Part shown: one piece after another, positions 798 through 58,685 of the stretch
Numbering within the stretch: position 1 is the stretch's first letter
How the letters are laid out: every line of letters begins with the position of its first letter
Assembly: GCA_051362555.1 (NCBI GenBank)
Contig: CM120649.1
Location: 16,940,567 to 17,004,566, forward strand
Source: Lingula anatina
Lineage: Eukaryota > Animalia > Brachiopoda
Reading direction: 5' to 3'
DNA: 64,000 nucleotides
Made by a program: the position numbers and the translations under genes
Notes under the pieces: generated by a model
Database searches by the model: none
Seen by the model: only the letters and a program-made list of their open reading frames with translations
What the model was told of the DNA's origin: nothing

Positions 798-3306
798 ATG
801 ATGACGAAGTTTCTGGCAAGCCTTTTAGTGCTTGGCCTTATGGGGCTGACTGCCGTGATTGGACAAGAAGAACGATTCCCCTCAAATCCAGACGGCGCTA
901 TATTCCGAACAACTCTCGAGGGCGGAACGTCGGTAGTGACCGGGTATTCAACAAACCAAGCCACATCACCGGATGGCAAATCCTACCCAGCGTGAGTGTA
1001 TTCACATCTGGGTCTTCTTTGATTGGAGAGCACGCGGTGTGCTGAGCCTTTATATTAACTGACGTTTTTTGTATTTTCTTTCTGTCTTTATTCCTTCTTT
1101 TTGTATTGTTACTTTTTTGCTTCCTTTCTCTTTATACCTTTTTTATTCCATTGTTATTTATCATTACCATTATCCGTACTAGTCTTTCTCAAAACATTAC
1201 TCATCGTTTAATAACATCATCAAGATATTTTTATTGTAACATAGGCCTACTGTTCTATTTCAATTTGTTTTCTGGCATTTTATTCTGTGATCTATTTTAA
1301 AATGCACGTGCACATTTTATTTCAAAAGGGTGGTCAGGGAGCATAGCGAATTCCCCACAAGAGCACCATTGGGTGGTGAGGACTCTCATCCACAGGACGG
1401 CGTCTCTGAGAATACAGGACAGGTTAACCCGAGGGCCAAGCGACAGGCCAGGTACACAAACTCAAGACATACATTATTTTCGTCTTTTCCTGCTTATGGC
1501 AGCTCTGGTTTGAGTAAGGGTGGGGTTGGGGAAGCTCTTCAAAACCTCCTGCTTAACTTCACAGGTACATTGTACGCCCCCCCCCCCCTCCCACCCCTCC
1601 AAAAACAGTTTAATCAAATTAGGGAAGCGAGATAAAAATTAAGTATGTTTGACCTACATACATGTATTTAAGTAAAATTGGTCTCGTCTACAATAGTATA
1701 TTATCACCTTTAGCAACGCCCGTCAGAAAAAACCTGGATCCGCCAGTGGATTGATAAATTAACAGCTGAAAAGATCAGCAGTTATAAAACTTGTATAAGT
1801 AGAAAATAATTGCAGAAATCTTGACATGTTTTCCAGCGATCTTGATGCTTTCTTAGCAAAGGTGATGTATTTTAATATTTTCATATTCATTTATCTATCT
1901 AATCATTTTATTTAATGTTCCGTTTTAGTCAAAATTATATATATATATGCCTCTATTTAGATAGCATTTACACAGCTTTGGTACGATTAGTTTGCCAAAA
2001 GTAAGAAAATGTTCGAATTTATTTCATCTGTAGATTAGTTCAAAACACAGCATCTTTTAAATATATACTTATTAACTAGTAATCATTTCATGTTTATTTG
2101 TCCATTCTAGTCTCTTCAGTCCTTGCCGGATGGTGCTCTACTGGGTCAGACCGTGGTGGGTGTACTGGGGAAATATTTGGTGGCCTGTCATGAACTCCCC
2201 CTGGTGGGGATGGCACTGGTATCACTGGTGGTATTGTCTGTAAGTTTTAATTATATTATCTAAATTCATATCGTACGTTAGAAATTAATGATACAGTATA
2301 GGTATTGAATTGTCTCGTGCCTACTTTCATTTTCTATATCTTTCTCCAGTGTTAATTGCTCTTCTTCGCAAATTTAAAATACTATAGAAGAATTGACTAT
2401 AGGGTCTTTTGAGGGATTTTAAAAATCTGCACTTAGACCAATATTTTATTGGTTATGGAAGGTTCAAGAGGGACAGTTTGGTGAGAGAATGTTGTCCTAA
2501 AATTTACACCTTTAGAAACTTGAACACATTTTGTTAAGTATAAGTGCGGTGTCCTTCATTTCCATTGATAGCACGGTGTGTCTAGGACCCCATTTCCAGA
2601 GATTAGATCGATCTACTTTAGATCGACCTACCTCCCTGGGGGTTCACGCTAAATTAGCTGTTAGCCGAGCGAACACGAAAGTTAATTACCCCCTTACAGC
2701 TGGTAGTAGGCGGGACGGACATTTAAGCCGGATTATCTGACAGTAATCTAGTGAGACTCCCCGCGGTGATAGATCGATCAAAAAGCTCTGGGAATACAGC
2801 CTAGGTGAAGTGCTGATTTGTAGCCTCATCTTTTTTCATACCCAAGACTACGAGCATTAAAAAATCCACAAGGGCAATAAAGTCATTTTTTTCAATGCAA
2901 ATATGAATTGCCACAGTTGCCTTCTTGATTTGGGATGGCCAAACAATAAATGAATAAAACAGGATATTGTAAGCTTTATGTACATATAATGTGCTTTCAG
3001 TGTTTCAATTGATTTCAACTTAGAACTATAAAATGATATTTTATTATGTGTATCAGATTCAGTCACTATAAGTGGGAAACTGTGAACAACATTTGGTTAT
3101 TTTATTTATTTATTTTTTTTTTCAGACCAAGTCTATGCAGAGCCGGCATTTATGACGGAAAGACTTTAAGATATCTGTGCTCGCGTTGTAGAACGGAGTG
3201 GGGCTGGATTCGTGTACCGATATGGTATTACTGGAGCCCACGTTGGATTTGGATCCGCGCACCTGTCGGGTGTTGCTGCGACATTAGGAACCAGTGGTGG
3301 TGCTGA
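798..3306 (+). CDS. Secreted Trp-rich cystine-knot (Spaetzle/neurotrophin-like) precursor, copy 1 (208 aa)
   Basis: Coding exons 798-991, 1329-1451, 2111-2239, 3126-3306; all introns GT-AG and phase 2; total 627 nt. Signal peptide MMTKFLASLLVLGLMGLTAVIG, acidic pro-region ending RAKR, then QASLFSPCRMVLYWVRPWWVYWGNIWWPVMNSPWWGWHWYHWWYCLPSLCRAGIYDGKTLRYLCSRCRTEWGWIRVPIWYYWSPRWIWIRAPVGCCCDIRNQWWC. Many differences between paralogs are synonymous in this frame. AATAAA at 3647-3652. Family assignment is by motif spacing only. Confidence 0.85.
2586..2801. mobile_element. MITE with 3-bp TSD (PIF/Harbinger-like)
   Basis: Imperfect TIRs GACCCCATTTCCAGAG / CTCTGGGAATACAGCC; TSD TAG. Empty site in copy 2 (about 8980). 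A second family member lies at 39571-39795. Confidence 0.75.
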
Positions 3307-4372: not shown

Positions 4373-4632
4373 GCTCAAAAGTAAATAGGACTAAGGTCAA
4401 TGCGATTGAAAATTGTCATTTGTTAATGACGAAAAATATGATACAAAGTTAAAAAATGGGGGATAATCATACCTACCCATATTATATAATTGATAAAGTA
4501 AGTTAATGAGTGCAACCAAGGCGATATATGTGAAACACCGAAAGGTATTGGAGCAAACGTCGGCACAAGTGAAAAATAAAACCCCAAAAAATTTATTTGT
4601 TTATGACTAAAAACCAGAAAGTTTGAAATTAT

Positions 4633-5301
4633 CACCCTGAGCTTCAGAGATAACTTGCCACTAACCTCTTCACTATAGCCTATCTTCATCGTGTCAAGTT
4701 ACCTCTGACCACATTCGATTGCCTCCGCCGCCCGCCAATCAAATTTAAAGCCCGCACTCAATGACTTATTGAACGATCTAGCCAATGAACGCGAACGAGT
4801 CAAAGCGCGCTTTGTTCAAATCCGGACCAATCAAAGATAAGGCTGAATATCAGGGACTTGCCGTAACCTGTGGGCAGCACGCAAAATACATCATCCCTCA
4901 GTAGATAATGATGCAGGGCCTCAAACTGATCTGGTTTCAATTCCGATATACTCATATTTTGCAAAGAATCAAGAGATAACTTAACACATTAATTTACGTA
5001 GTCACTCGTAGGAGACGCCATGCTTTCTTTGTGTACGGTTATGCACTCGGAACTACTCGGATGTCTCCGCACTCGACAATAACTTTGTTGTTAGTATGGA
5101 GCTTGCGGAATCAGCCGAGGATTGCCGATTGACGGTCAACCAATCAGCGTTTTCACCAAACTTTGGTGAAAAATTTTGAAACATGGATTCGATTGGCTTA
5201 TATAAACTAGGTCAAACTATTTTCGTCAGAGGTAACTTGACACGATGAAGATAGGCTATAGTGAAGAGGTTAGTGGCAAGTTATCTCTGAAGCTCAGGGT
5301 G
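4633..5301. mobile_element. Non-autonomous DNA transposon with 77-bp perfect TIRs and 8-bp TSD
   Basis: 4633-4709 is the exact reverse complement of 5225-5301. TSD GAAATTAT at 4625-4632 and 5302-5309. No transposase ORF. Confidence 0.9.
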
Positions 5302-6249
5302 GAAATTATATGACGGTTTATGATTCGTAATTCTGTGAACGACTTTTGGATATAGTATTCCATCGATGATTTAAGGAAAAGTGTAGAAATTTTCGTGTCA
5401 GTTAGTTTTTTCATAGATCCCTTTATAATGGTCTAAGTTAACTTGCGTGCCTTTAATACAATACCGTCACGTTTTCATTTTGTAAATAAGACGCTGCGGA
5501 TCTTCCTTCGAGGCACGCACCACATTTAAAGACCATAAAATTAATTTTCAATTAGTGATTTCCACGTACAACAGCAAAAAACATCTATCATTTTTAAAAC
5601 GTGATTAAGACAAAGTCAAAGGAGCCAACGCTAATCCACCAAGGGAGATCTACAAGTACGGAATGCTTAATTTGCCTTGAATGCATTACTATATTGCCCA
5701 TCATATTGGATAGATTTCAACTTTTTTATTCTTAAAAAATAATATCTAATGAGAATAAGTAAACAGAAAGTTACGTGGGACGTCTCTGAAACACATGGAT
5801 GTCGAAGTAGAAGTTATGAAAAAACTTTTAATCCGTTTTTATAAATAATTCTCGTCGTCATTTTCACCCTATATATCCAAGCAAAACGTTTAATGAAATT
5901 TTGACTAGCTTCTCTGAAGATCTTAAAAATTGAGGCTTTGTTTTCAGTAACTGCCAGATACAGTGTTTGTCGTTTAATGCAAACAGTTGCAGATCTTGCA
6001 TATCAATTAAACCAGCAATTAATTTTTCTTTTTCAGGTTCACACATAAACATTATCTATCCATTTATTTATTTTCATTTCTTATTGTTCATCTATTTATT
6101 CATTCATTTTATTTTATTTTATTTTATTTCATTTTATTTTATTTTATTTTATTTTATTTTTTTTGGCAGACGAATCAAGGCCAAAACATATATAAATCAT
6201 GTTGTTTTTGCCATATCTCGTAATTGATCAATTAAGCGTCGCTAAATGA

Positions 6250-7196: not shown

Positions 7197-9483
7197 ATGG
7201 GGAAGTTTCTGGCAAGCATTTTAGTGCTTGGCCTGTTGGGGCTGACGGCTGTGGTTGGACAAAAAGAAAATTTCCCCGCAAACCCAGACGGTGCTTTATT
7301 CAGAACAACTCTCGGCGGGTCGGCGGTAGTGACCGGGTTCTCAACAAACCAAGCCACGTCGCCGGATGGCAAACCCTACCCACCGTGAGTGTATTCACAT
7401 CTGGGTCTTCTTTGACTGGAAAGCACGCGGTGTGCGGATCCTCTATGTTAACCTGACGTTTTTTGTTTTTTGTTTTTACTTTCTTTCTGTCTTTCTTTAT
7501 TTCCTTCTTTGTGTATCGTTACTTTCTTGCTTCCTTTCTCCTTTCTCTTTTCTTAATTACATTGTTATTTCACATTACCATTATCCGTATTGGTCTTTCT
7601 CAAAATATTACTCATCGTTTAATAAATACATCAAGATATTTTCATTGTAACATATTCAATAATTTTTTCTGGTCTTTTTTCTGTGATCTATTGTAAAATG
7701 CACGTGCACGTTATTTCAAAAGGGAGGTCAAGCAGCATAGCCAATTCCCCACAAAACAACCATTGGGTGGTGAGGACTCTCATCCACAGGACGGCGTCTC
7801 TGAGATAGGAGGACAGGTCAAGATGAGGGGGAAGCGGCAGATCAGGTACTCAAACTCGTGACATAATTTCATCGTTTTCCTGCTTATGGCAGCTCTGGAT
7901 TGAGTAAGGGTGGGGGTGGGGAGCTCTTCCAAACCTCCCGCTTAGCTTTAGAGGTACGTTGTACCCCCCCCCCCCCAAAAAAAAAAAAAAAAAAAGAAAA
8001 AAACGGCATAATATAGCAAGGGAAACAAAATAAAAACCACGTATTGTTTATCCCTGTGATTGTTGTAAAATTGGTTTCTTCTCCTTTATTACCCCCCCCC
8101 CCTTCAGCAACCTCTTTCAGCAACAATACCCTGGATCCCCTGAAAAAGATCAGCAGTGAGTTAACTTGTAGAGCCTGATAAAAAATTACAGAAATCTTGA
8201 TAAGTTTCCCAGCTCTCTTTTGCCTTCTTTGCAAAGGCAGGTATTTTTTCTATTTTCCATTTTTGTTTAGCTACATTATTATTTTATTTTATTATATTTT
8301 TTAATACGATAATTTGCTTTTGAGTTAATTAATTACGATAAATAATTAAAATTAGGGCCCAGGCCCAAAAATAACCTAAAGTACCTTCGACAGATATTGC
8401 TCATATGCCAAAACTCAGAAAATGTTCAAATCAATTTCACCTGTAGTTTAGTTCAGCACTTTTTACATGTATACTTATTGGCTGGTAATTATTTCATACA
8501 TATTTCTCTATTCCAGTCAGATTGGTTTTTGCCGGGTGGTGCTTTACTGGGTCAGACCTTGGTGGGTTTACTGGGGAAATATTTGGTGGCCTGTCATGAA
8601 CTCACCCTGGTGGGGATGGCACTGGTATCACTGGTGGTACTGTCTGTAAGTTTTTATTGTATTATCTTAATTCCTATTGTACGAGTGTGAAATAAAGATA
8701 CAACATAGGTATTGAATTGTGTTGTGCCTTCTTTCATTCTCTATCTTCTTCTTCATAGTGAATTTTTTTCTGCTTGTTTGAAATACTATAGAAGTACTCC
8801 TATAAGATCCCACTGGGGATATTTGAAAGCCAAAGGACCAATAACATTCAAGAGAGGCAGTTTTGTTAGGGTAGTGCACATACTGCCAAATGTGGTCCTT
8901 AAATTGTACACGTAAACCTGAACACATTTTGTTAAGTAGAGATGCGGTGAATTTCATTTCCATTGATGACACGGCGTGTCTAGGTGAGGTGTTGATATGT
9001 AGCGTCATCTTTTTACATACGCAGGCACAAAGCCAAGACTACGAGCACTAAAGTACACAAGTGCAATTAAGTCATTTGTTTCAAATACAAATATTAATAA
9101 CTACAATATCATGCTTGATATGGGATAATCAAACGATAAATAAATAAAGCAGGATAAGCTTCATGCACGTGAAATGTCCTTTCAGTGTTTCAATTGATTT
9201 CAACTTAGAACTATAAAATGATATTTTATTATGTGTATCAGATTCAGTAACTAAAAGTGGGAAACTGTTAACGTCATTTGGTTATTTTTTTTCTTTTTCC
9301 AGACCAAGTCTATGCAAGGTCAGCATTGCTGACCCAGGGAATATAAGATATCTGTGCTCGCGTTGTAGAACGGAGTGGGGCTGGATTCGTGTACCGATAT
9401 GGTATTACTGGATTCCACGTTGGATTTGGATCCGCGCACCTGTCGGGTGTTGCTGCGACGTAAGGAATCAGTGGTGGTGCTAA
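7197..9483 (+). CDS. Secreted Trp-rich cystine-knot precursor, copy 2 (206 aa)
   Basis: Exons 7197-7384, 7723-7845, 8517-8645, 9303-9483, with the same 123/129/181-nt exon sizes and phases as copy 1. Cleavage site RGKR|QISQIGFC. Non-coding exon 1 ends at 6381 (AAAG|GTATTG). AATAAA at 9766-9771. Confidence 0.85.
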
Positions 9484-13825: not shown

Positions 13826-15902
13826 ATGACGAAGTTTCTGACTAGCCTAGTAATACTGGGTTTGACGGGCCTGAACGCGGTGGCTGGACTATTTCCGTTA
13901 ACAATTCACCCCCCTCCCACTGATTACACACTCCCACCCCCCACTGGAGACACACCACCACCACCACCCACTGATGATACAGAAGGATTTCCCGAAAATC
14001 CAGACGGCGCTATATTCAGAACAAATCTCGAGGACGGGACGTTGATAGTGACCGGGTTCTCAACAAACCAAGCCACGTCACCGGATGGTAAACACTACCC
14101 AGCGTGAGTATATTCACTTCTGGGTCGTCTGTGCTGATCCTGTATATTAACCTGGCTTTTTTCATTTTTTGCTTTGCTTTTTCCCCTTTTTCTTGTTCAT
14201 TACTCTCTTACTTTATCTCTTCCTTCCTACTCTTTTTTTAAATTTCGCATTACCTGTCCGTACGCGCCTTTCTTCAAATATTATACTTCTTTTATTATTA
14301 AACTATAAGATATTTTCATGTAACATGCATAATTCGATCTATGTAAGTAAGTTCTGTTTGGATGTTTAGTCTGTGATCAATTAGAAATACACATGCACAT
14401 TATTTCAACAGGGAGGTCCACGAACATAGCGAATTCCCCACACACCAACCAGAAGGTGCAGACGACTCTCACCCACAAGACGGCGTCTCTGACATACAGG
14501 CGCACCCCCACCTGGTGGCCAAGCGGCAGATCAGGTGTAACACTAATAACTTTTTTCTTCGATTGTTACAATACAATACGTATAACAAGGGAATCAAGAC
14601 ATAACAAGTAATTTGTGAATCCCTATGTCCTCGGATTAAAGTAAAACTCTTCTCGTATTATCCCTTACCTCTTCAGCAACCCGCGATTGCATTGGTAAAT
14701 TCAACATTTGAAAAAGATCAGCACGTACATGTAGAACCAGAAAAATTACACAAGCCTAGACATGCTTTACGAACTAACTGAATTAGGGTCCCAGACTCGT
14801 AGAACTTGGGACTGGAAAATTACTAATCTGCCAAAAGTCAGAAAAATAAAAAAAATTTATATTAATTTCATCTGTAGTTTACTTTAAAACACAACGCCTT
14901 TTACATATAAGATTATTGTCAATTATTTCATATATATTTGTCCATTCCAGTCAGATTAGTTATTGCCGGACGGTGCATTACTGGGTCAGGCCGTGGTGGG
15001 TGTACTGGGGAAATATTTGGTGGCCCGTCATGAACTCCCCCTGGTGGGGATGGCACTGGCATCACTGGTGGTATTGTTTGTAAGTTTTCATTGCATTACA
15101 TCCATTTCCTACTCGATGAATTAAAATAGTGATATTTTTTTAATTGTAGTACTTTTATTAACTACTCTATGAGCAAGAAATAATGATGAAATATCGGTTT
15201 GAAATTTGCGTGCTTCTACTTTGAAGCTTCGTCTCCTTGACAGTTGTATTTCTTTACTAGTTTGAAATAGTATAAAAGTACCCATGCCCAATAGGGTCCT
15301 ATAAACTTTTCTATAAGATCCAACAGAAAATTCACGTAGGAAACTTTTGAAATATCCATATTTGGACCAATAAGGTCGCTAGAGTAAGTTTTTAAAGGTC
15401 TTGCACATAGTGCCAAGCGCGGCGCGATGCGGTGAATTTCATTTCCATTAATAAGACGTTACGTCCTGGTGCAGTGTTGATTGTTGCCTCATCTTTTTTT
15501 CATACGCAGCCACAAAGCCAAGACTACGAGCACTAAAATAGACACAAGTGTAATTAAGTCATTTGTTTTCAATGCAACTATGAATAGCCACAGCTGCCTT
15601 CTTGATATGGGATAACCAAACCATAATTAAATATATAAATAAACTGAACGTCGAACGTTCATTTACGTATCAAAATGAGTTGCTGCTAGTTGAAATCATT
15701 TGATTATTCTTACTTTTTCAGACCAGGTCGATGCAGAGCCGTCATGTTTGAAGGAAGAAGGTTTAGATATTTGTGCTCGCGTTGTAGAACGGAGTGGGGC
15801 TGGAAACGTGTGCCGGTGTGGTATTACTGGATCCCGCGCTGGATATGGATCCGCGCACCTGTCGGGTGTTGCTGCGACATTAGGAATCAGTGGTGGTGCT
15901 AG
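13826..15902 (+). CDS. Secreted Trp-rich cystine-knot precursor, copy 3 (236 aa), with Pro/Thr/Asp-rich insert after the signal peptide
   Basis: Exons 13826-14103, 14412-14534, 14951-15079, 15722-15902. Cleavage site VAKR|QISQISYC. Reading frame intact. Non-coding exon 1 ends at 12552. AATAAA at 16255-16260. Confidence 0.85.
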
Positions 15903-19131: not shown

Positions 19132-21854
19132 ATGACGAAGTTTCTGACAAGCCTTGTGGTGCTCGGTTTGACGGGCCTGAACGCGGTGGCTGGACTAATA
19201 ATTAGAGAACCGTATCCTACTTTGTTCCCCTTCAATCGCACATATGATCCCCCAATTGAATACACACCACCACCACCTACTGAAGACACAAAACCACCAC
19301 CACCACCAACAACCCCCACTGATGATATAGGATTCCCCGAAAATCCAGACGGTGCTATATTCAGAACAACTCTCGAGGACGGGACGGCGGTAGTGACCGG
19401 GTTCTCAACAAACCAAGCCACGGCACCGGATGGCAAACACTACCCAGCGTGAGTGTATTCACATCTGGGTCTTCTTTGACTGGAAAGCACGCGATGTGCT
19501 GCTCCTGTATATTAACTTGACGTTTCTTTCCTTCCTTTTCTTTTCTTTTTTCTTTGCTTTATTCCCTTTTTTCTTGTTCATAAGTTATTTTCTTTCTTCC
19601 CTCCTACTCTTTTTTATTGAGATAAGACAAGAGTTCATTTAGCCAATTATAAAAATCGGAAATCATTTTCCTTGTGGAGCAAGTTTAATAATACACAGAG
19701 TAAAAGTACTACAAAAGATAAATTAAGAATTTGGTTTTGAGATCAAATTAAAATGCGTCACTGCACTTGGGTAAAAGCTGTTTAAAACGCGTTTACTACC
19801 CTTAAAAGTTTTAAGTCTACTAGTGCTTGGTAAAAACGTAAAAAGTGGTGATGCAGGATGAGAAGAGTCTTCCATGGTGTTAACAGTTATTTTCTCCACT
19901 ATTAATTATACGATATTCCATGTAACATACATTGTTCGATCTATTTAAATATGTTTTCCTTGACTTTGTTTGTGATCTCTTAACAATATACGTTTACATT
20001 ATTTCAACAGGGAGGTCCACGAGCATAGCGAATTCCCCACACACCAACCAGATGGTGCAGACGACTCTCACCCACAGGACGGCGTCTCTGACATAGGCCT
20101 ACAGGCGCATCCCCACCTGGTGGCCAAGCGGCAGATTAGGTACTGCACGTAACACTAATAACTTTTTTCGTCGATTCTTACATACAATACAATGCAATAC
20201 AATGGCAGATCTGGCGTGCGTAGGTGGGAAAAAATCTCGTGCACTCTTCCCGCTTAGCTCCAGAGGCGCACGGTACCCCTTTTCCTCTAAAAACAGTGTA
20301 ACAAGGGAATCGAGACAAAACCAAGCAATTTATCAATCCCTGTGACCTCGGATATTTAAACTGTTCTCGACTACTATTCTATCCCCTACCTCTTTAGGAA
20401 CGATACCAAGGACCAGCAATTGCATTGGTAAATTCAACGTTTGAAAAAGATCAGCGTCTAGAACCAGAAAAATTACACAAGCCTTGGCATGCTTTATTAC
20501 GAACTTACTGAATTAGGGTCCCAGACTCGTAGAACTTGAGACTGGAAAATTACTAATTTACCAAAAGTCAGAAAAAAAAATTATATTAATTTCATCTGTA
20601 GTTTACTTCAAAACACAGCACCTTTTCTATATAAAGTAATTGTCTAATATTTCGTACATAATTTTACATTCCAGTTTGATTGGTCAGTGTCGGACGGTGC
20701 ATTACTGGGTCAGGCCGTGGTAGGTTTACTGGGGAAATATTTGGTGGCCTGTCATGAACTCCCCCTGGTGGGGATGGCACTGGAATTACTGGTGGTATTG
20801 TTTGTAAGTTTTCATTGTATTACATCCATTTCCTACTCCTTGAATTAAAATAGAGATAATTTTACTTAAATTGTAGTACCTTTATTAACTATTTTTAAGT
20901 AAGAAATAATGAGGAAATATCGGTTTGAAATTTCCGTGCGTTTACTTTGAATCTCCGTCTCCTTCCCCATTGACAGTTGTATTTCTTTGCTAGTTTGAAA
21001 TAGTATAGAAGTACTCATGTCCAAAAGGGTCTTTAAACTTTTCCATAAGATCCAACAGGAAATTCACAGGTCCGTAGCCAGCAATTTTAGAGGTGGGGTG
21101 GGGTTCGTTTTCTGAAAAGGTGGACCTTTTACCATAAAGTCCTCAAGTACATAGATCAAATTGTACCCAGAGTGGACCTTTTCCCAGCAAAAAGGGTGGT
21201 TCTTTTGAACCCCCCCTCCCCTGGCTACGGGCCTGATTAATGTAGGAAACTTTTGAAATACCCATATTTGGACCAATAAGGTCGAGAGAGTCAGTTTTTG
21301 TTTTGTTCTTGTACATAGTGCCAAGCGTGGCCCGATGCGGTGAATTTCATTTCCATTGATAAGACGTTGCGTCCTGGTACAGTGTTGATTTGTAGCCTCA
21401 TCTTTATTCATACCCAGGCACAAAGCCAAGACTAAGAGCACTAAAATAGACACAAGTGTAATTAAGTCAATTGTTTTCAATGCAACTATGAATTGCCACA
21501 GTTGTCTTCTGGATATGGGATAACCAAACGATAAATAAATAAATAAACGTTCCTTTATAAAGAAAACGTGGGCCAACAGGAGGGGAAACCAATTTAGAAC
21601 TATAAAATATGTGTACATATATCAAAATGTGCTACTACTAGTTGCAAACATTTAATTATTCTTAATTTTTCAGGCCAAGCCAATGCAGAGTCGGGGTTTA
21701 TGATGCCGGGTGGTATAGATATCTGTGCTCGCGTTGTAGAACGGAGTGGGGCTGGAAACGTGTGCCGATATGGTTTTACTGGAATCCGCGCTGGGTATGG
21801 ATCCGCGCACCTGTCGGGTGTTGCTGCGACATTAGGAGACAGTGGTGGTGCTAG
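19132..21854 (+). pseudogene. Trp-rich cystine-knot precursor, copy 4, with in-frame TAG in the third coding exon (pseudogene, null allele, or alternatively spliced)
   Basis: Exons 19132-19448, 20011-20139, 20675-20803, 21674-21854. TGG>TAG at 20721-20723 where the other three copies have Trp. All splice sites and all 9 Cys are otherwise intact (251 aa if the stop were read through). Confidence 0.75.
21067..21235. mobile_element. MITE, same family as 434-630, opposite orientation
   Basis: Termini CAGGTCCGTAGCCAG / CTGGCTACGGGCCTG; degenerate TSD ATTCA/ATTAA. The site in copy 3 (about 15335) is empty. Confidence 0.8.
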
Positions 21855-27000: not shown

Positions 27001-30000
27001 TCAGTTTTAGCATTAGATAGGACAGAAAGGTCTTTTTGTGATCAAATTTGCATAACTGAAGCTATTTTCTAGTTTTACCATTTTTAGTTATGAGAAACTG
27101 TTTCTCCCTGGGTAGATATGGTTTTATTTTGGACTCGTCTCCTGATGCCCACTGCCATGTAGGACAATGGTGAACAATGTGATCTCCTGCAGCTACAAAC
27201 TGGAATAAAACCAACACCAAGAGTTTGTGATGATGAAAATAACAATAAGAAGGAAAAGAGGGAGAAGAATAAATAAATAAATAAACAATGGAAAAATAAC
27301 AAATTAAAATAGAACATGAACATTTTTTTTATATATGTTATAACCCTTAAGTATGAGGAATCAATAACTTAAATATATGCCAGATATATACATTTTTTCA
27401 CTTTATCTTCAGTTTGAGGAAATGGTTTCATTAATTAAAAAAAGCTTAAAACAAGATGTAAGATGCAACAAGCATTTGAGATATAAACACAGCCCACTTT
27501 AAGAAAAGATGAGGATGCAAGAAGAATACAATCTCTAGAAATATCAGTTATTGATTTATATTCCCTTTTAAATCTTTTCAACAACATGGAAATGCAGCAT
27601 CACTAAGTGGAATTCTGATAGACTGACAATAATTATGTCTTTATGTATTTTAGTTTCCATGTGTTTAATTAAAAAAGCAGACAAATAACAGAAGCTGTAA
27701 TCTCTGTTTAACTTATTCAAATAGTTGACTTATTCTAAAACTATCATCAGTCTGCCATATTTTCATTTTCTACATGCAAAATGCAAGTAAAACTGAAGCC
27801 AAGACAGTAACTTTCTTTTTGTTCAGTTACTGAACAATGTTTTGGGCCAGTAATTTTTTTAAAGATATCTATTGGTGTCTGAAGGACCAGTAGAACCAGT
27901 AGAACCCAAAAAACTTTGGTCCAGCTGTTATGGTTCTTAACACTATCGGTCAAGCTTATAGTAACCCCAACCCTCTGTCATCAATTATCATTAAATAGCA
28001 CTCTCACTAATGTACGTAGTATAAACACTTGACAGCAGTGATCCCTCTGATCAGTAGACACAATGTATTTATATCAGCACACATAGAAATAAAGTTAGTT
28101 GTTGCAGTCAAGTCCTTCCTGGAGTTGTTTCATGGTGTCAGAAGTACGTGACTGTGTTTTATAACAATACAGTGAGCCAACGCTGATAACCAGTTGATAA
28201 AAAAGTCTTTCCACATGGAGCTGGGAGCTTTACCAGTACCTGCCATGAACTGGCATGCTACTGATGCAGTTCAGGAGTACAAGAAGTTCAAACAGATGTG
28301 CTATACTTTGATGGTCCACTAAAGAACAAATCTAAGACTGAAAAGATTGCGTACCTCCAGATATGGGCTGGAGAGACTGGACGAGACCTAGTTAGCACAT
28401 GGAACTTGACTGGGGATGAATCTAAGGAATTAAAAACCTACTTTGACAAATTTGAAGAATTTGTTAAGCCTAAAAGCAATTTTAGACTAGCCAGATTTAA
28501 GCTGAGGACCCTTACGCAAGGTAACGGGGAAACTGTAGATCAATTCTTGAAGAGAATTCGTTCTCTGGTCAGCGAGTGCAAGTATACCCAACCAGATGAA
28601 CAAATACTTGACACGCTCATTTTTGGATGCAAATCAGCCCGCACGCAGTCCAAATTACTGGAATTGGGTGAAACTCTGTCATTGGACAAGGCGATCGACA
28701 TTGCAAGAACTCAGGAAGCAACCTCGCAGCAACTCACAGACATCAATCGAGACGCCCAGGTCCATGCAGTCAAGCACAACAAACCGTTTCGCCATAAACC
28801 TACATTTAAAGGGACACATAAGAAGAGAGAAACTTCTACCATGGCCTCAAAGTGCCACCCCACAATGGAAAATCAGTGCAATAACTGTGGATCAAAACAT
28901 GATCATAGTAAAAGAGAGCTGTGCCCAGCATACGGCTCCACATGCTTTGGCTGTGGGAAACTTAACCACTGGAGAAAGTGCTGCCGCTCCGAGCACAAGC
29001 AGTCCACAATTCATCGTGGAAACAGGCCACACAGACACGCCGTCACTCCCAAGCAGCAAATGCATAGAGTGCATGCCTGCAGCGAAGACGACTGTGAGCC
29101 ACAAGAGACCAACGAGCTATATTTTAGCCCAATATACGTGGGCAGCATTGAAAGCAAGCGTGCTTTCATTAACCTGAAAATCAGCTCTGAGCAAAATAGT
29201 ATCACTTTTCCGTGCAAAGTTGATACTGGTGCCGATGGAAACCTAATCACGAAGAAAGACTATGCCAAATTATGCCCTAATAATACCAATTTGAAACCGT
29301 CTGGCGTCAAAATTGTAGCCTTTGGTGGTCAACGCATACCTCATTATGGATCATGCACCTTGACACTGACGTATGGAGGTTCAAATACTGAGCATGAATT
29401 TCACGTTGTCGAAACCAATGGGCCGACTATCCTAGGCATAGACACCTGCCAGAAACTAGGCTTAGTTACACTTAACTATGCTGTTGATCTGGAGGACATA
29501 CAGCACTCCAATGCTAACAATGCCCTTCTGGAACAGTACCCCGACTGTTTCCAAGGCATTGGCTGTTTTAAAGGGGAATACCACATTACCCTTGATCCCT
29601 CGGTGCCACCAGTGGTGCATCCACCACGCCGTGTACCAGAAGCGTTACGTGAGCCTCTCAAAGCGGAGCTCGAGTCTCTTGAAAAGAAAGGCATCATCGC
29701 TAAAGTAGAGGAGCCAACAGACTGGGTCAATTCGTTAGTCTGTGTCACAAAGGCTGATGGCAGCATACGCCTGTGCTTAGACCCAAAAGATCTAAATGCC
29801 GCGATAAAAAGGCCACATCATCGAATCCCAAGCTTTGACGAAATTTTACCAAGGCTTAGCGGAGCCCGCTATTTTTCAATTCTGGATGCTCGTAGTGGTT
29901 ACTGGAACATTAAACTTGACCATGAGAGTTCACTGTACACCACTTTCAATTCACCTCACGGTCGATACCGTTTCCTACGACTTCCATTTGGCCTTGTATG

Positions 30001-33000
30001 CGCCCAAGATGTTTTCCAGAAAAAGGTAGATGAAGCCTTCGGAGACCTAGACGGAATTACAGGAATCATTGACGACATCGTTGTCCATGGGAAAACCAAA
30101 GAGGAGCACGACAGAAATTTGCATCTCCTCATGGATCGTGCCAGAAAAATAGGCATCCGTTTCAATCCAGATAAAATGCGCATCAGATGCAGCGAAATTC
30201 CATTCTTTGGAAACATACTCAGTTCGGAGGGTCTACAACCTGACCCGAAGAAAGTGGAATCCATCCACAGCATGGATCCGTCCAGCAACCTCGCCGATCT
30301 TCAAACGTTTCTTGGCCTCACCCAGTACCTCAGCAGGTTCATACCCAACCTGGCTTCCATTTCAGCAGTACTGTGGGACTTAACTAAGAGCAAGAATGAG
30401 TTCGTTTGGAGCCCAGAGCATCACGCTGCAGTAGAGAAAATCAAATCTGTCATCACCTCACCAGAAACATTGCAATATTTTGACAGTAGCAAACCTGTAA
30501 CGATTCAGGTTGACGCATCGCAGCGCGGCCTCGGCGCCACTTTGATGCAGAACAATCGCCCTGTCGAATACAGGAGCAAATTACTAACAGAAACCGAGAC
30601 ACGGTATTCAAACATAGAGCGTGAAATGCTTGCAGTTGTACATGGATTAGAGAAGTTCCATTACTACGCTTATGGCCGCAAAGTCACTGTTGAAAGTGAT
30701 CATAAGCCTCTCCAATCCATATTCCAGAAACATGTGAACAATGCACCTCCCAGAATCGCAAGGATGATGTTGCGCATTCAGAAATATGATGTAACAATCA
30801 AATATGTGCCAGGAAAGAACATTCCAGTCGCTGATGCTCTTTCCAGATTGTCAAAATGCGAAGGTGACACCATTCAAGGTGTAGATGTCACAGTGCATGA
30901 GATCGACATGCAGCTGAATGCAAGCCCCACCAGACTAAAGCAGATCCGAGAAGAAACGTCCAAGGACGAGACGCTTCACTCTCTTCGAAACTTCATCACA
31001 AACGGATGGCCAAACACTAGATCAGAGTGTCCATCGCACCTCCACGACTATTGGAATTACCGTGATGAATTGTCAGTATTTGATGGCCTTATTCTAAAGG
31101 GAACTAGAATCCTGATCCCAACAACGCTTCAAGCAGCAGTGTTAGAACAGTTACACTATGCTCATCAAGGAGCTGAAAAGTGCAAACTTCGTGCCAAAGG
31201 ATCTGTATTTTGGGTCAACATTAATCGAGACATCGAAAACATGGTTAAAGCATGTGCACCATGCCAACACAACCAGAAGGCAAACGTCAAACAACCGCTA
31301 ATGCCACACGACGTACCACAAAAACCATGGCACACACTGGGAGCAGACTTATTTTTCATTGACAATGACAGTTACTTGCTCATATCTGACTATTACAGCA
31401 AATTTCCAGTAGTCAGAAAGCTGAACAATTTGCAGTCCAACACTACCATTGCTTACATGAAATCAATCTTTGAAGAATTCGGAATCCCGAGAAAGCTTAT
31501 CACTGGAAATGACACTCAGTTTACTTCGGCTGAATTCCAGAAATTTAGCCACGATTATGGCTTCGAGCACGTCCAAACAAGCCCCCACTATTCACAGGCC
31601 AATGGATTTATTGAACGAGCTGTTCAAACTGTTAAAAATCTGCTGATTAAATGCAAGGAAGCTAAAACCGATCCTCATATGGCCATGTTGTGCCTTAGAT
31701 GCACACCATTAGATCACAACATACCATCGCCAGCAGAACTCTTAAATTCTCGTGCTTATGATACCAATCTTCCTGCCATCCAACCCCACCTGTCACATGC
31801 CTCTTATGACGGTGAAATAAATGCATACATGCAAAGAAAAAAGGATAAAGAAAAGAGCAGATATGATCAGTCAGCCAGAAAGCTATCTGACCTACTTCCT
31901 GGTCAGCATGTGAGAGTACGACATCCCCAGAGTCACAAATGGGAACCAGCAATTGTAGATTCTACGAGACCAAACAGGAGCTATGTTGTAAAAACTAACA
32001 ATGGTGGTCAGTATGTACGCAACCGTATACACATACGTCCAACAGGAGAGAAATTCAATCAGTCTGACTTTGAAAACACCCATTTGCAAAATCATTCACC
32101 AAACAATGATCAGGAGTCCCGCTTTGAGAATTCAGAAGCAGCTCAGAACAAACAAGTGCCAAACACTGTGGATAACACTGTACCCCAATCACCAGTGCCA
32201 TCTCCACGACGATCTACTAGAATAACAAAAGCACCTGATAGACTGAACTTGTAACTTGTACATATGCATAAACAATGTCATATAGCTCTACTAGCTAGGA
32301 TTTTATTTATCACTGTATTAACTTTATTTTACTCACTTAAACTACATGCTTCACATGTGAGACTTCTCTTGCACAAGGTATTACTCAAGAAATCAAAAAG
32401 ACATTTATTCTCTGTTGCCACTATCAACCCTTTATTTAGCACCGATTATCTTTTCTAAAGGAAGAAGGGGATGTTATGGTTCTTAACACTATCGGTCAAG
32501 CTTATAGTAACCCCAACCCTCTGTCATCAATTATCATTAAATAGCACTCTCACTAATGTACGTAGTATAAACACTTGACAGCAGTGATCCCTCTGATCAG
32601 TAGACACAATGTATTTATATCAGCACACATAGAAATAAAGTTAGTTGTTGCAGTCAAGTCCTTCCTGGAGTTGTTTCACCAGCCTGCACCATATGACCGG
32701 TCTAGGGGCGTACCCACCTCTTCCGGTGTAATCACTCCAGTCTCCTTGAATTTTGACTCCTGAAAATAAAATGTGAAGATGACACGTCGTTTAATGTCAG
32801 AGCTGTATTTTGATAGTAAATCAGAACCTCCATAATAGATATTGAGCAAAATCAGTGCTTTGAAATTGATACATTACTATTTTTTTTCATTAGCTTCGAG
32901 ATGTATATGATCTCTGGGTACATTTGTCATGCCAAAATAGGTACTGTCTGATTTAAAGAATATAAATGCATCTATGAATAACCACAATGGGGTTGTAAAA

Positions 33001-36936: not shown

Positions 36937-39900
36937 CTATGGATTCCTCTGACAGACTGCACATCGGCTGACCCGGCTTCGTAAATTGCCAGCTTTGAGA
37001 GTTTGCGGTTGTGGATCAGAGAACTGAGACTGAGTATCTATAGTTGTCAGCCAGAAACTGAATTTGTTAGCGAAATAATGACAAGTGCCTCTTGCACCAT
37101 TACACTCGATGAAGGGTGTTGCACGGAAGTCCTCGAGACAGCTGCCGGGACTGATCAGACTCTGGCCGCCACCTTCGGCTCCTGCTGCCGTGTGCTGGAA
37201 AAGTTTTAAGGTCAAAGGTCAAATGTTTGATGACACGGCAGCTTAACATGGGCTCAGTTTCATCAATACTGGATACCACTATTCAACTGATAATTTATAT
37301 CCTCTTAGGCAGTTCTCGAGTGGGATAAAAGTGATGTTTCCCAAATGCTGGATACTTTTTTGTCTCTGATATTTCTATCAAACGGTTAAAATGACTGTTA
37401 TCCTCAGGACAGCTTTGCAGAGGATGACAATTATATCTAGCAGACAGTGCTATACATTGGAAAGTGCTATCCAGCATTGGTGAAACAAGACCCTGATGGT
37501 TATGTTTTTATATTAATCAAAATATACAATTAAAATTCATTTCTATGATATGATTATCATTTAAACAAAAACCATTAAAGTAAGACAATTAAATTTCAAC
37601 AAACTCTGTTGCACCTGCTAGCTACTACATCATTCAACTTACCATTGCAAAGCTATACCCAATCCAAAGTTCGCTCCATCCCTGAGGGCACCTTGGCACG
37701 TTCAAATCCTGGCTGTGGACAGCTATCACATTGGTGGGTGCATCACATACAACACACCTGCTGATGTAGGGCCTGATGTCATCCTCCATCACAGGCATCA
37801 TTGGGATGGGGGCGTTGGTGGACAGCCAGTAGGACTTGTCGTTTCTGCTGGCGTAATTGCACACGTTGTTGATGTTACAGAACAGGAAGGGCATGGTGCT
37901 GAATCTCTGCAGACACGAGCCTGCAAAACCTGGAAGTGGAAAAGTTCAGCGTGATATTTGTGATATTTGCATTGGGCTTGGAAAGGTAGGTGTCACTGAT
38001 ACTGATATGACTGCACAATGATGGTTAATCATGTGGGGTTAATATGCTACATGCTTAGAGGAGAATGGAAGATGAACTAGGAAAACTTGCGAGTGGAAAA
38101 TATTACTTATCATATAATCTAAGAACGGGACATTGTTATATCTGTTCACCTTGCATTTCAGCCTCTGATACTACCAGAAGTAAATTGGACATTGTTTTTC
38201 TTGTCTGTCCTCAGTTCACAACATTAATTACTTGGCTGTTGCATGAATACACCTTACTTTATCTTACCTTAAATAACAAAGTACGTGCAAGGCAGTCAGA
38301 AATCAATTCATTTTTCAGAACCTACTTGTATGTCAAAGTTAAGTGTCAAAACAAACAAACAAACAAACAAACAAACAAACAAACAAACAAACAAACAAAC
38401 CTAAATCCTGGTTGTGGGCCCTCTCATTGCCTTCAATATACAATAAACTGTACCCCTCCCACAACTGAGTGTTGCCAAAGGGGCACTTGGGGATGTTAGT
38501 GCTCTGACTGTGCTTGACCAGGAGATAGCCAGTGGGCAGGGTTTGTCCAGGGGGGCCCAAATCTCCTTTAGGTCCTGGGGGACCAATGTCACCTAGGAAC
38601 AAAGACGTGGGACATGATACATTATGAACAAATCCCTTTACCACAACATTTCTGGATAAATTGGCAATAGAGTATTTTAAACAAGAAAGTAGCTGTGCTG
38701 TCCAAATTAAGTCTCTATCTCTGTGCCACAAGTCACCTTAATATACATTTAATTTGGGTAGCTCTACCTCTGTACTACCCATCTCAACTTGACAATTTAT
38801 GATTATGACTACAAACAGAACAGTACAGACCAAAACCAGAGATTTCATCAAGCCAGAAACTGCATTTAAATGATCTATCTAAAAATTCTTTAAGATCATA
38901 TTAACCTGGTGATTTTCTTCAGTATGTGGAGATCAGATATTTTCTATCCTACCTGGCAATCCTGGTAGACCCGGAGAACCTGGTAGTCCTCTTTCTCCTG
39001 GACGTCCTTCTGCTCCTGGGAGTCCTGGCAAGCCTCTGTCTCCTGTCAAACCAAATGCGCCCTTGGGACCTAAAAACAGAAGAGAGAGATATTTAATGTT
39101 AATCTACTGTAACTAATGAAATAGTAATTAGAAATGAAAAGTTCCTTCCCAGAAGAACTAAAGAAACACCTAAATATTAATCTACTGTCAGTTTCTTCCA
39201 GAAAACATTTTCAAAATATTCATTTATGATGACACCATATCCAAACAACTTACCTGGTAGTCCAGGTAGACCACTTGGTCCCCTCTCTCCCTTCATTCCA
39301 GGGAGACCATCCAGCCCTCTCTGACCTGGCTCTCCCTTGTCTCCCCTCAGAGGCTGTGGTCCTGCCTGACCCGGCTCTCCCTTGAAACCTGGGGGTCCCT
39401 GGGCACCTGGAAGCATAGAACAGACCATGTGTGTCATGGCTATACTGGCTCTAGGTTATAACACATTTATCATTTCACTGTGATACTGATCACTGCATGA
39501 GGAAAGCACATATATAATGTGGAAATTATTCATAAAATTCATATTTATGTATGGAATACTAATTGTCTTAGGGTGTATTCCCAGAGATTTAGATCGATTT
39601 AGGGATTTAGATTTAGATCGACCTAACTCCCTTGGGGTTCACGCTAAATTGCAGTCAGCCAAGCGCGCACCATAGTTAATTACCCCCTTACAGCTTTTAG
39701 TAAGTGGGACAGACACTTAAGCCCATCAAGCTGACAGTAATCTAGTGAGACTCCCCACAGGGATAGATCGATCTAAAATCTATGGGAATGGGGTCTTAGT
39801 GCAGAAAATATACCAAGTCTCTTTAAGAAGGCTGAACGATGTATATGTTCCACAAACATCAAAACGCTTGCTCAGGGTCAATCACCAACAACAATCTGAT

Positions 39901-53792: not shown

Positions 53793-55737
53793 TAATACAG
53801 AACACTGCCTATTTAAAGTAAGCAAATAAAAAAATATCAGTATAAATCAAGTTAGTCTACTGACATTTTCCACTTTATCTACCTCTGTGAAAATGACTGA
53901 TAGTTCAGTGAAGAGTTTTAACAATGTAAAACTTTTTCCCTTGAGTTTAGGTGGGTGGGCTTGTATAACCTAGGTTTCTATCCAAGAATAGCAGCCAAGC
54001 CAGGTCACATAAACACCCAAGCAGATCAAGAACAATGGGGAACAATATGATGTAACACACGAGGGATTTCTACACACTTCTTTGTCAAAAATCAATTTTC
54101 TGTTCCACTGCTTTCCATCTGTTAAAAAGATTATGATTTCCATGTGTTTTTCAAATTTTTCTACAAATTTGGGGAATTCTTTTTGCACTTGCCTGTGATG
54201 GGTGCAAGGTTATTGGCTAAAAACGGAGGTAATGCATTACTTCTAACAGTTTTTTTCTTTTTTTTTTCTTAGTGTTTTAACATGTGACTGTGCATATGTG
54301 CATGTTTTGTTACATGGCACGTATGTGTGTGCATGTTTGTGTCCATTCAGATTGTACATGCTCCACATACATAAAATTATACATTAAAATTCCAAAGAAC
54401 TTCCCAAAATATATCTTTCAAAAATGACTTCCCAAAAACTACACATCTTATTCAACTAAAACGTACTAATGAACATCTCTTCAATCAAAATGAAAGTGAA
54501 ACTGATTCCTACCTTCATTCCCTTCATTCCCACCTCTCCCTTTGGTCCAACTATGGGCACTACCATGGAGGTATTACCAGATACGAAAGGACAAGATCCG
54601 GGGTCTCCCTTGGGACCTCGTGAACCAGCTGGCCCAGGTAACCCTGGCTGTCCCTGTCTTCCTATACCTGGGTTACCTTTATCACCTTGTGGCCCCCTCA
54701 CTCCTGGAGGACCCTGGAGTTAAAGTGAAAAACATTGTGATAACAGACCACTTCTCATTGTGTTTTACGAGGAGGCAGGGCAAAGGTTTATGATTGGTCT
54801 TTTTAAGTTAAGTGTGAACTGTTAAAAAAACTGTCACTCACAGCACAACCACACCTAACACAATGCTTACCTGGGGTCCTGGTTATACAGAGACCAGTAA
54901 AGTCACAGCCAACACACTGTCACTCACAACACAACCACACCTAACACAATGCTTACCCGGGGTCTTGGTTGTACAGAGACCAGTAAAGTCACAGCCAACA
55001 CACTGTCACTCACAACACAATCACACCTAACACAATGCTTACCCGGGGTCTTGGTTGTACAAAGACCAGTTAAGTCACAGCCAACACACTGTCACTCACA
55101 ACACAACAACACCTAACACAATGCTTACCTGGAGTCCTGGTTGTACAGAGACCAGTAAAGTCACAGCCAACACACTGTCACTCACAACACAACCACACCT
55201 AACACAATGCTTACCTGGAGTCCTGGTTGTACAGAGACCAGTAAAGTCTCAGCCAACACACTGTCACTCACAACACAACCACACCTAACACAATGCTTAC
55301 CAGGGGTCCTGGTGGTCCTTGTTCTCCCTTCATACCTGGGGAACCATTTAATCCTGAAGCACCCTAGAGAAAATAAAACACAAAACCATGTTAAATCTTT
55401 GGCAATGGGGAAGCTATATAATATGTAAAGACACCAATAACACAGCAGAGAAGACAGTGATTTCATTAATAAAAATATTTTTATTTTTTTCCCATAAATA
55501 ACTAAATAAATATGGTTTAAATAACTGGCTGAGACTTACTGGTGGTCCAGGTCGGCCATCGTATCCTGGTTCACCCTGGAATTACAAAGAAAACATACTA
55601 AAAGTTGCCTCTGACTTGCTAGTCCTATGATCCAAGTTATTAGAGGAAGGTACTATGTTTTTTTTTTACTTCTGTTTTTCTTCTGTAAATACTGTATACT
55701 GTTATGCTGTAGACTTTAGGATCAAAACTTTTTTTTA

Positions 55738-58263: not shown

Positions 58264-58685
58264 CTGAAATACAGAACAAACACATATGATTTCATTGCTC
58301 ACCCATGTTATTTCTCCATGTTCCAATAGATAAATGGAGTCAGCAGTTTTCAATCATCTAATATATTAGAGTATATTCTTAACCATGAAATCCAAACATG
58401 TTGCTGTCTAACACACATCTGAGTCAAAAGTAACAATCCAGGTGTTCAGTTAATAACTTTACACTTAAAGAAACAAGATACATCTAAAACAGAAAACATT
58501 ATGTCAAGGAAAATTCAATACAGACTGTAGGACATAATGTCTATTAATATTCAGAAAAAAACGTGCTCAAATATATCCATATAGTTCTATATAGTCCAAC
58601 AATACCAGGAAGATATTTACACAGAATGAAGAAGGCTGAGCAAGGTTTCTACTTGTACCCCTCACATTGACTTAAAACGATATAT

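What the first reader, a model, noticed from the sequence alone, without database searches (positions are those of the whole stretch)
3139..3168. One hypervariable 10-residue loop inside an otherwise nearly invariant domain
Between the third Cys and RYLCSRC the four copies read RAGIYDGKTL, KVSIADPGNI (9316-9345), RAVMFEGRRF (15735-15764) and RVGVYDAGWY (21687-21716), with length conserved. Copies 1 and 2 differ at 12 of 30 nt (8 of 10 aa) here but at only 5 of the next 135 nt. The mature N-terminus also varies (QASLFSPC, QISQIGFC, QISQISYC, QISLIGQC). Inference: diversifying selection on a specificity loop displayed on a constant aromatic scaffold, as in immune effectors, toxins or gamete-recognition proteins.
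Basis: partly seen in the sequence, partly recalled or inferred. Interest (0 to 1): 0.75.

Follow-up and report, generated by a model that had tools for sequence, protein, structure and literature searches.

The report
Tryptophan-rich Spätzle-like brachiopod gene cluster
Four neighbouring gene copies, matching genes of the lamp shell Lingula, encode tryptophan-packed proteins that are likely secreted and predicted to share the fold of the fly immune signal Spätzle and of nerve growth factor; one short stretch differs sharply between copies, probably through selection, and would set what each copy binds.

Summary
All relatives found are uncharacterised Lingula anatina proteins. Language-model features, a sub-threshold Pfam match in distant paralogues and two fold searches agree on a Spätzle/NGF-type cystine knot: signal peptide, pro-region, KR site, 105-residue mature domain with 20 Trp and 9 Cys. 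The variable stretch is a predicted beta-hairpin between putative knot cysteines III and IV, the least conserved internal segment family-wide and, in insect Spätzle, a Toll-contacting region. Loop omega is about 3 and standard site tests are significant (p 0.003-0.01), but significance is lost when double-nucleotide changes or a loop-specific synonymous rate are allowed. Loops of copies 2 and 3 were unchanged in every other sample that covered them: paralogue divergence, not allelic hypervariability. Copy 2 is spliced as predicted; copy 4 has a stop upstream of its loop. Verdict: a real, apparently undescribed aromatic variant of the cystine-knot cytokine clan; adaptive divergence probable, partner unknown.

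The parts
798..3306 (+). Gene copy 1: exons 798-991, 1329-1451, 2111-2239, 3126-3306; 208-aa preproprotein
   Evidence: GT-AG introns, open frame; no splice joint among the rows shown
3139..3168 (+). Variable segment of copy 1, mature residues 51-60, predicted beta-hairpin between putative knot Cys III (C50) and Cys IV (C67)
7197..9483 (+). Gene copy 2: exons 7197-7384, 7723-7845, 8517-8645, 9303-9483; 206 aa; transcribed and spliced
   Evidence: 15, 26 and 26 reads across the three predicted introns in run X14
9316..9345 (+). Variable segment of copy 2
   Evidence: no other letter listed at depth about 36 in run X14, nor in a 145-nt contig of run X8; same ten residues in P0001
13826..15902 (+). 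Gene copy 3: exons 13826-14103, 14412-14534, 14951-15079, 15722-15902; 236 aa, proline-rich acidic pro-region
   Evidence: depth under 1 in the two bins over exons 3-4 in 4 of 4 RNA runs laid
15735..15764 (+). Variable segment of copy 3
   Evidence: same 30 nt in contigs of runs X3 and X8, same last 23 nt in X10
19132..21854 (+). Gene copy 4: exons 19132-19448, 20011-20139, 20675-20803, 21674-21854; in-frame stop at 20721-20723, probable pseudogene, null allele or assembly error
   Evidence: the stop was not checked in other samples
21687..21716 (+). Variable segment of copy 4, downstream of the stop; 5 of 10 residues shared with the distant paralogue P0002

Best explanation
The four tandem genes encode preproproteins that are likely secreted and likely cut at a dibasic KR site to release a cationic 105-residue domain of 19% tryptophan, predicted to fold as a Spätzle/NGF-type cystine knot, and the variable ten residues are a predicted beta-hairpin that probably diverged under positive selection after duplication and would set which partner each paralogue binds, most likely in defence at body surfaces. 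Shown: gene structure, composition, splicing of copy 2, strong constraint on the scaffold, loop divergence above non-coding divergence, loop constancy within paralogues in the samples seen. Predicted: the fold, and the loop's place between knot cysteines III and IV. Inferred: (1) the pro-region (acidic in copies 3 and 4, with a motif conserved in distant paralogues) keeps the aromatic, basic domain soluble until cleavage; (2) the odd ninth cysteine makes a covalent dimer; (3) the Trp-rich fingers give a constant sticky face or dimer interface, while the hairpin and the free N-terminus, which by knot topology (recalled) lie at the same basal end, form the variable face; (4) by analogy with insect Spätzle that face meets a leucine-rich-repeat receptor or a microbial surface. 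My odds by step: cystine-knot fold 0.9; positive selection contributed to loop divergence 0.6-0.65; role as defence ligand or effector rather than building material 0.45.
For: Fold: ESM Atlas features give Spaetzle first for P0001 103-207 (0.87, 180 of 256 features) and for P0009 (0.91, 195 of 256), and the Atlas model of P0009 matches a Spaetzle cluster at TM 0.62 over 97 residues. Pfam Spaetzle covers profile positions 3-95 of 96 in P0009 (E 0.0043), 4-94 in P0007 (E 0.01), 3-94 in P0016 (E 0.017). P0009 aligns to the window's clade at 97.8% probability over 98 columns. The mature-domain model (pLDDT 74) has Foldseek top hits NGF (prob 0.99, E 0.023, TM 0.40), then NT-3, NT-4, BDNF. All nine cysteines are kept in 8 of 9 family members, the ninth being a partial sequence. 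Selection: M1a/M2a p=0.010, M7/M8 p=0.010, M8a/M8 p=0.003 on the mature domain; 2 of 136 null simulations reach the observed statistic; loop omega 2.5-3.3 in 9 of 9 fixed-site fits with a shared synonymous rate, p 0.0001-0.004; neutral simulations with the best window chosen after the fact reach the observed value in 2.7% (all codons neutral) or 1 of 3000 runs (region-wise omega). Analogy: in mosquito Spz1C a basal extra cysteine (Cys-59) sits in the area that binds the Toll concave surface, Drosophila Spz has an insertion there that enlarges the interface, and binding is paralogue-specific (PMC9427763, passages). L. anatina has 25 TLRs in the table of PMC8609888 (passage).
Against: No window-clade protein matches any Pfam family (0 of 4); the three Spaetzle matches score 16-18 bits against a cut-off of 27; no Foldseek hit reaches E 0.001 and RMSDs are about 10 A; no PDB sequence match of the clan. 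Only 1 of 5 mature models exceeds pLDDT 70. Selection is not significant with double-nucleotide changes in site models (p 0.14 mature, 0.56 whole gene), without copy 4 (p 0.057), or with a loop-specific synonymous rate (p 0.17); non-coding 30-nt windows reach the loop's level in 149 of 1528 (copies 1-2), 20 of 1384, 58 of 204, 25 of 247, 0 of 130 and 0 of 389 windows. The segment is the least conserved internal one across nine family members (identity 0.11; 10-23 residues long), as relaxed constraint would also give. A distant paralogue shares 5 of 10 loop residues with copy 4, so there is no constant turnover. 19% Trp and a relative read about 800-fold deep in run X17 suit a bulk product better than a trace signal. 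No receptor, tissue or infection data.
Confidence: 0.45

Rival explanations
1. The same cystine-knot proteins have been turned into extracellular building material (chaetae, periostracum, pedicle cuticle or mucus): the tryptophan fingers would stack on chitin or on each other, as horseshoe-crab coagulogen uses this fold to gel, and the loop would tune packing or cross-linking in different tissues.
For: 20 Trp, 7-8 Tyr and 2-4 His in 105 residues, rising from 9-12% Trp in distant paralogues to 19-20% in this clade; different family members dominate different RNA runs, one with 751-824 reads at each of four matching places in a quarter of run X17; coagulogen is among the weak fold hits (E 2.2); the Lingula shell is an apatite-chitin composite (PMC13425148, passage).
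Against: Family motifs were not found in the supplements of two Lingula shell-proteome papers, which is weak because those files may hold no sequences; structural proteins seldom need omega above 1 in one hairpin (own knowledge); copy 2 is only moderately expressed where seen (depth about 36 in 1,262 million letters).
Confidence: 0.3
2. The loop is simply the unconstrained part of the fold; relaxed selection plus clustered or multi-nucleotide mutation, or a short conversion tract from a paralogue outside the window, produced the contrast, with no adaptive meaning.
For: Site tests lose significance with double hits and the loop test with its own synonymous rate (p 0.17); non-coding DNA shows up to 1.75-fold excess of adjacent mismatches (194 against 110.5 expected for copies 1-2); the segment is the least conserved internal one family-wide; informative sites in the loop favour a different grouping (3 for 13|24, 2 for 12|34) than the prepro region (2 against 31); copy 4 is broken.
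Against: Copies 1 and 2 differ in the loop by 11 non-synonymous and 1 synonymous change; the excess holds in all six pairs; the fixed-site test stays significant with double hits (omega 2.5, p 0.003-0.004) and without copy 4 (p about 0.001-0.002); the mutation rate would have to be about 1.5-2 times higher locally to make the window ordinary (108 and 905 of 3000 runs); length and residue pattern are kept within the clade.
Confidence: 0.25
3. The loop is an allelically hypervariable recognition site under continuing arms-race or balancing selection, as in gamete-recognition proteins, or a venom-like toxin scaffold.
For: Secreted, cysteine-rich, tandemly duplicated, omega above 1 in one segment. 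A fifth loop type (that of P0003) occurs in runs X3 and X8 and could be an allele.
Against: Copy-2 loop unchanged in the window, X14, X8 and P0001 although X14 and X8 differ from the window at two scaffold sites, one a replacement; copy-3 loop unchanged in X3, X8 and X10; the P0003 type occurs beside the copy-3 type in both runs and differs along the whole protein, which suits a separate paralogue. No match to a toxin or gamete-protein family.
Confidence: 0.08

Closest known systems
Spätzle family of Toll ligands (Pfam PF16077)
   Same: Signal peptide, pro-domain, about 105-residue C-terminal domain; best feature and model match; sub-threshold full-length profile match in paralogues; furin-type processing is known for Spz2 and Spz5, and duplication with paralogue-specific binding for mosquito Spz1C (PMC9427763, passages).
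   Different: Below the Pfam cut-off; 19% Trp; nine cysteines with a CCC run; glycine at the position just before putative Cys V where Spätzle has its interchain cysteine (position recalled); no Toll binding shown; found only in Lingula records.
Neurotrophins (NGF, BDNF, NT-3, NT-4; PF00243)
   Same: Top Foldseek hits of the mature model; dibasic cleavage site; similar C-terminal finger.
   Different: 14-18% identity, no Pfam match, three extra cysteines, tandem expansion with a fast-evolving hairpin rather than strong conservation.
IL-17 / Trunk / PTTH ligands
   Same: Same clan (PMC11087794, passages); appear in the feature search at 0.83-0.86; the PVGC-x-C ending resembles IL-17 (recalled).
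   Different: Rank below Spätzle and NGF in both searches; no Pfam IL17 match.
Horseshoe-crab coagulogen
   Same: Cystine-knot relative used as a bulk defence material (role recalled); weak fold hit (E 2.2).
   Different: Different size and composition; no sequence match.
Lingula anatina LOC106177158, LOC106177174, LOC106177234, LOC106177248 and five more distant proteins
   Same: The family itself; P0001 (LOC106177158) has copy 1's exon-1 sequence and copy 2's loop.
   Different: All named records read 'uncharacterized'; none carries a precomputed Pfam domain among those listed.

Membership tests
Cystine-knot cytokine clan (Spätzle/NGF/IL-17) | Six conserved cysteines spaced I...II...III...IV...V-x-VI | tested here: met
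   C8, C45, C50, C67, C95, C97 present in all four copies and conserved family-wide; the assignment to knot positions is inferred from spacing
Cystine-knot cytokine clan (Spätzle/NGF/IL-17) | Two long antiparallel beta-fingers matching the clan's fold | tested here: met
   Strands 10-28, 40-45, 59-80, 83-104 in the model; NGF top hit, prob 0.99 but E 0.023 and TM 0.40; paralogue P0009 TM 0.62 to a Spaetzle cluster
Cystine-knot cytokine clan (Spätzle/NGF/IL-17) | Knotted disulfide connectivity I-IV, II-V, III-VI | not testable with these tools
   Model coordinates are not returned; needs disulfide mapping or a structure
Cystine-knot cytokine clan (Spätzle/NGF/IL-17) | Secreted preproprotein with a protease site before the domain | tested here: met
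   Hydrophobic N-terminus (judged by eye, no predictor run) and KR-Q at the domain start in 4 of 4 copies; cleavage itself not shown
Cystine-knot cytokine clan (Spätzle/NGF/IL-17) | Acts as a dimer | not tested
Spätzle (PF16077) | Reaches the Pfam gathering score (27 bits) | tested here: not met
   0 of 4 close relatives match; 3 of 11 further family sequences match at 16-18 bits
Spätzle (PF16077) | Interchain cysteine directly before knot Cys V (position recalled) | tested here: not met
   G94 stands there; the extra cysteines are C64, C96, C105
Spätzle (PF16077) | Binds and activates a Toll receptor | not testable with these tools
   No receptor data
Neurotrophins (PF00243) | Profile match to NGF | tested here: not met
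   No PF00243 row; no PDB sequence hit
Arms-race recognition loci (gamete-recognition, polymorphic immune effectors) | dN/dS above 1 at the recognition site | tested here: inconclusive
   Significant in standard models, not in double-hit site models or with a local synonymous rate
Arms-race recognition loci (gamete-recognition, polymorphic immune effectors) | High replacement polymorphism among alleles at that site | tested here: not met
   No loop variant of copy 2 in 2 of 2 runs that covered it, none of copy 3 in 3 of 3 DNA runs; small sample, contigs drop rare variants

The most novel reading that the evidence does not exclude
Lingula has its own expanded family of at least nine Spätzle-like proteins that are endogenous ligands of its 25 Toll-like receptors, each paralogue addressed to a different receptor by the fast-evolving basal hairpin, with the tryptophan fingers anchoring it on chitin or microbial membranes. 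That would put ligand-gated Toll signalling in a spiralian, where TLRs are assumed to sense microbes directly.
Probability: 0.2. Interest if true: 0.85.

Novelty: new variant of a known kind. Interest (0 to 1): 0.6.

Why it matters
Spätzle orthologues have been sought and missed in spiralians, and their TLRs are therefore taken to bind microbes directly (PMC9835746, passages). A brachiopod family that hides below the Pfam threshold because of its extreme tryptophan content shows such ligands can be overlooked, and names concrete candidates and a concrete ten-residue determinant to test. If instead the proteins are structural, it is a growth-factor fold turned into an aromatic biomaterial in a chitin-phosphate animal. 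Either way a set of 'uncharacterized' Lingula proteins gains a fold and a testable specificity site.

Tried and rejected
No whole genome is held for this window, so copies upstream of position 1 or elsewhere could not be listed; tblastn found no further copy beyond 22 kb in the window. Pfam on single exons found nothing. The full-length model was poor (pLDDT 46) and its Foldseek hits had E above 2; only the mature-domain model was used. Depth over copy 1 comes largely from a repeat at about 2586-2795 and says nothing on its expression. Homogenisation of the scaffold by gene conversion was considered and is not needed: scaffold pS (0.22) is not below intron divergence (0.09-0.22). A compensating frameshift in the loop was rejected by inspection of the codons. 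Other reading frames of exon 4 hit stops early. Motif searches in supplements of PMC4595640 and PMC13425148 found nothing; long cells are cut and sequences may not be held. Three papers that bear on the claim were not held: the two Toll-Spätzle crystal-structure papers and the 2018 survey of Lingula immune genes; the last may already mention this family. No earlier finding of this scan was returned.

Full report
Observation. The first 22 kb of the window hold four direct repeats of about 6 kb. Each is a four-exon gene on the + strand with GT-AG introns in the same phases. The products are 208, 206, 236 and 251 codons long: a hydrophobic N-terminus, a pro-region, a KR-Q site and a 105-residue mature domain with 20 Trp, 9 Cys and net charge +7 to +11. 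Copy 4 has an in-frame stop at 20721-20723, before its loop. Copy 2 is transcribed: run X14 has 15, 26 and 26 reads across its three predicted introns.

Identity. Searches of 5.8 billion proteins and of 1.84 billion representatives returned nine proteins, all named as uncharacterised Lingula anatina proteins. P0001 matches copy 1 in exon 1 and copy 2 in the mature domain, so the window is Lingula anatina or very close. No relative outside Lingula passed the thresholds; brachiopod sampling in these databases is probably thin (own judgement). Loose read ends in run X17, 751-824 reads at each of four places, translate by eye to a P0004-like paralogue not in the window, so family members are used differently in different samples.

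Fold. Pfam finds nothing in the window clade. The ESM Atlas feature search on the mature part of P0001 ranks Spaetzle first (0.87, a lead only), then NGF, IL-17 and Noggin clusters. Distant paralogues close the gap: P0009, P0007 and P0016 match Pfam Spaetzle over nearly the whole profile at E 0.004-0.017, below the curated cut-off; P0009 scores 0.91 by features and its Atlas model matches a Spaetzle cluster at TM 0.62; and P0009 aligns to the window clade at 97.8% probability with every cysteine of the clade in register. An AlphaFold2 model of the mature domain (best pLDDT 74, the other four 43-65) is all beta, and Foldseek ranks neurotrophins at the top (best E 0.023, prob 0.99, TM 0.40; none at E 0.001). 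These lines are individually weak but agree, and I put the cystine-knot fold at 0.9. Membership of Spätzle proper is not established: the Pfam cut-off is missed and the Spätzle interchain cysteine position (recalled) holds glycine.

Where the loop lies. By spacing, the knot cysteines are C8, C45, C50, C67, C95, C97, with extras C64, C96, C105. Residues 51-60 follow C50 and in the model form a hairpin (strand 49-56, turn, strand from 59). Across nine family members the 51-63 segment has mean identity 0.11, against 0.62 and 0.74 for the finger-2 strands, and runs from 10 to 23 residues; the N-terminus (0.12) and the finger-2 tip (0.17) are the other variable parts. In mosquito Spz1C a basal cysteine at position 59 lies in the area that binds the concave face of Toll5A, Drosophila Spz has an insertion there that enlarges the interface, and binding is species- and paralogue-specific (PMC9427763, passages). 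That this region lies between knot cysteines III and IV is my recall; the two crystal-structure papers were not held.

Selection. Loop pN averages 0.47, scaffold pN 0.037 and scaffold pS 0.22. My own codon models give M1a/M2a p=0.010, M7/M8 p=0.010, M8a/M8 p=0.003 on the mature domain, with omega about 2.4 for 29% of sites; 2 of 136 null simulations reach the observed statistic. With regions fixed in advance, omega is 3.2 in the loop, 1.2 in the N-terminus, 0.6 in the prepro part and 0.16 in the scaffold; loop omega above 1 holds under three frequency models, without copy 4 and with double hits (p 0.0001-0.004). Because the window was chosen after the fact, I simulated best windows: 2.7% under all-neutral codons, 1 of 3000 under region-wise omega, but 108 and 905 of 3000 if rates are 1.5 or 2 times higher. 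Against: site models with double hits give p 0.14 and 0.56, dropping copy 4 gives p 0.057, a loop-specific synonymous rate gives p 0.17 on about 7 synonymous sites, and single non-coding windows reach the loop's level in 0-28% of cases depending on the pair. Four sequences cannot settle this; I put a contribution of positive selection at 0.6-0.65.

Paralogues, not alleles. On copy 2, run X14 shows no other letter in the loop at depth about 36, though it differs from the window at two scaffold sites (one replacement, one silent); a contig of X8 spans the loop without difference; X3 and X10 did not cover it. P0001 has the same ten residues. The copy-3 loop appears unchanged in contigs of X3, X8 and X10. 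A fifth loop type, that of P0003, occurs beside it in X3 and X8. The distant paralogue P0002 shares 5 of 10 loop residues with copy 4, and positions 51, 52, 54 and 56 keep their chemical class in 6 of 6 close members. The pattern suits bursts of change after duplication followed by constraint, not continuing allelic diversification. The sample is small and contigs drop rare variants.

Mechanism. I commit to a secreted, dibasically processed cystine-knot protein, probably a disulfide-linked dimer, whose aromatic fingers are constant and whose basal hairpin and N-terminus give each paralogue its partner, most likely in surface defence (0.45). The main rival is a structural role on chitin (0.3), favoured by the tryptophan load and by the very high read depth of one paralogue. 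Relaxed constraint alone (0.25) explains the loop but not the function. Gamete recognition or toxin (0.08) has no support.

Novelty. Full-text searches found no paper with Lingula anatina and tryptophan-rich (0) or with Lingula, spatzle and cystine knot (0); one mussel Toll paper with Lingula anatina, Toll-like receptors and spatzle (listing only); nothing on this family in the listings. The library misses most subscription papers and accented spellings, and the 2018 survey of Lingula immune genes was not held. A brachiopod neuropeptide survey has no occurrence of spatzle, neurotrophin or cystine in its main text (PMC8557429, passages). A nemertean study found no Spätzle orthologue and takes spiralian TLRs to be activated directly (PMC9835746, passages); L. 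anatina is listed with 25 TLRs (PMC8609888, passage). The clan is described in PMC11087794 (passages). I rate this a new variant of a known kind, interest 0.6.

Noticed in passing
window 27926-32678 (+): Intact Ty3/gypsy-type LTR retrotransposon: 207-nt LTRs 100% identical, CCAGC on both sides as target-site duplication, 1329-codon open gag-pol frame with RT, RNase H and integrase; a very recent insertion.
   Followed up: partly
window about 38300-49700 (-): Exons of a type IV collagen gene (Gly-X-Y repeats and C4 domain, E 1.6e-14) downstream of the cluster.
   Followed up: partly
P0001 against window 798-991 and 7723-9483: The database protein has copy 1's exon-1 sequence joined to copy-2-like later exons: unequal crossing-over, conversion or a mis-joined gene model.
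   Followed up: no
window 20721-20723: In-frame stop in exon 3 of copy 4; the rest of the gene and its splice sites look intact, so the loss is recent or an assembly error.
   Followed up: partly
window 874-991 and the matching parts of the other exons 1: A pro-region motif of about 35 residues is conserved in all copies and partly in distant paralogues and is predicted as a small beta-hairpin; it may chaperone the aromatic domain.
   Followed up: no
window 9406 (copy 2, mature residue 81): Tyr-to-His variant in all 15 reads of X14 and in a contig of X8, at the finger-2 tip, the family's second variable site.
   Followed up: partly
window 4627-5307: Element with 95-nt inverted ends (93% complementary), well covered by RNA reads in three runs; MITE-like.
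   Followed up: no
window 54739-55402, 58682-59126, 60362-60757: Minisatellites of 86, about 109 and 61 nt period.
   Followed up: no
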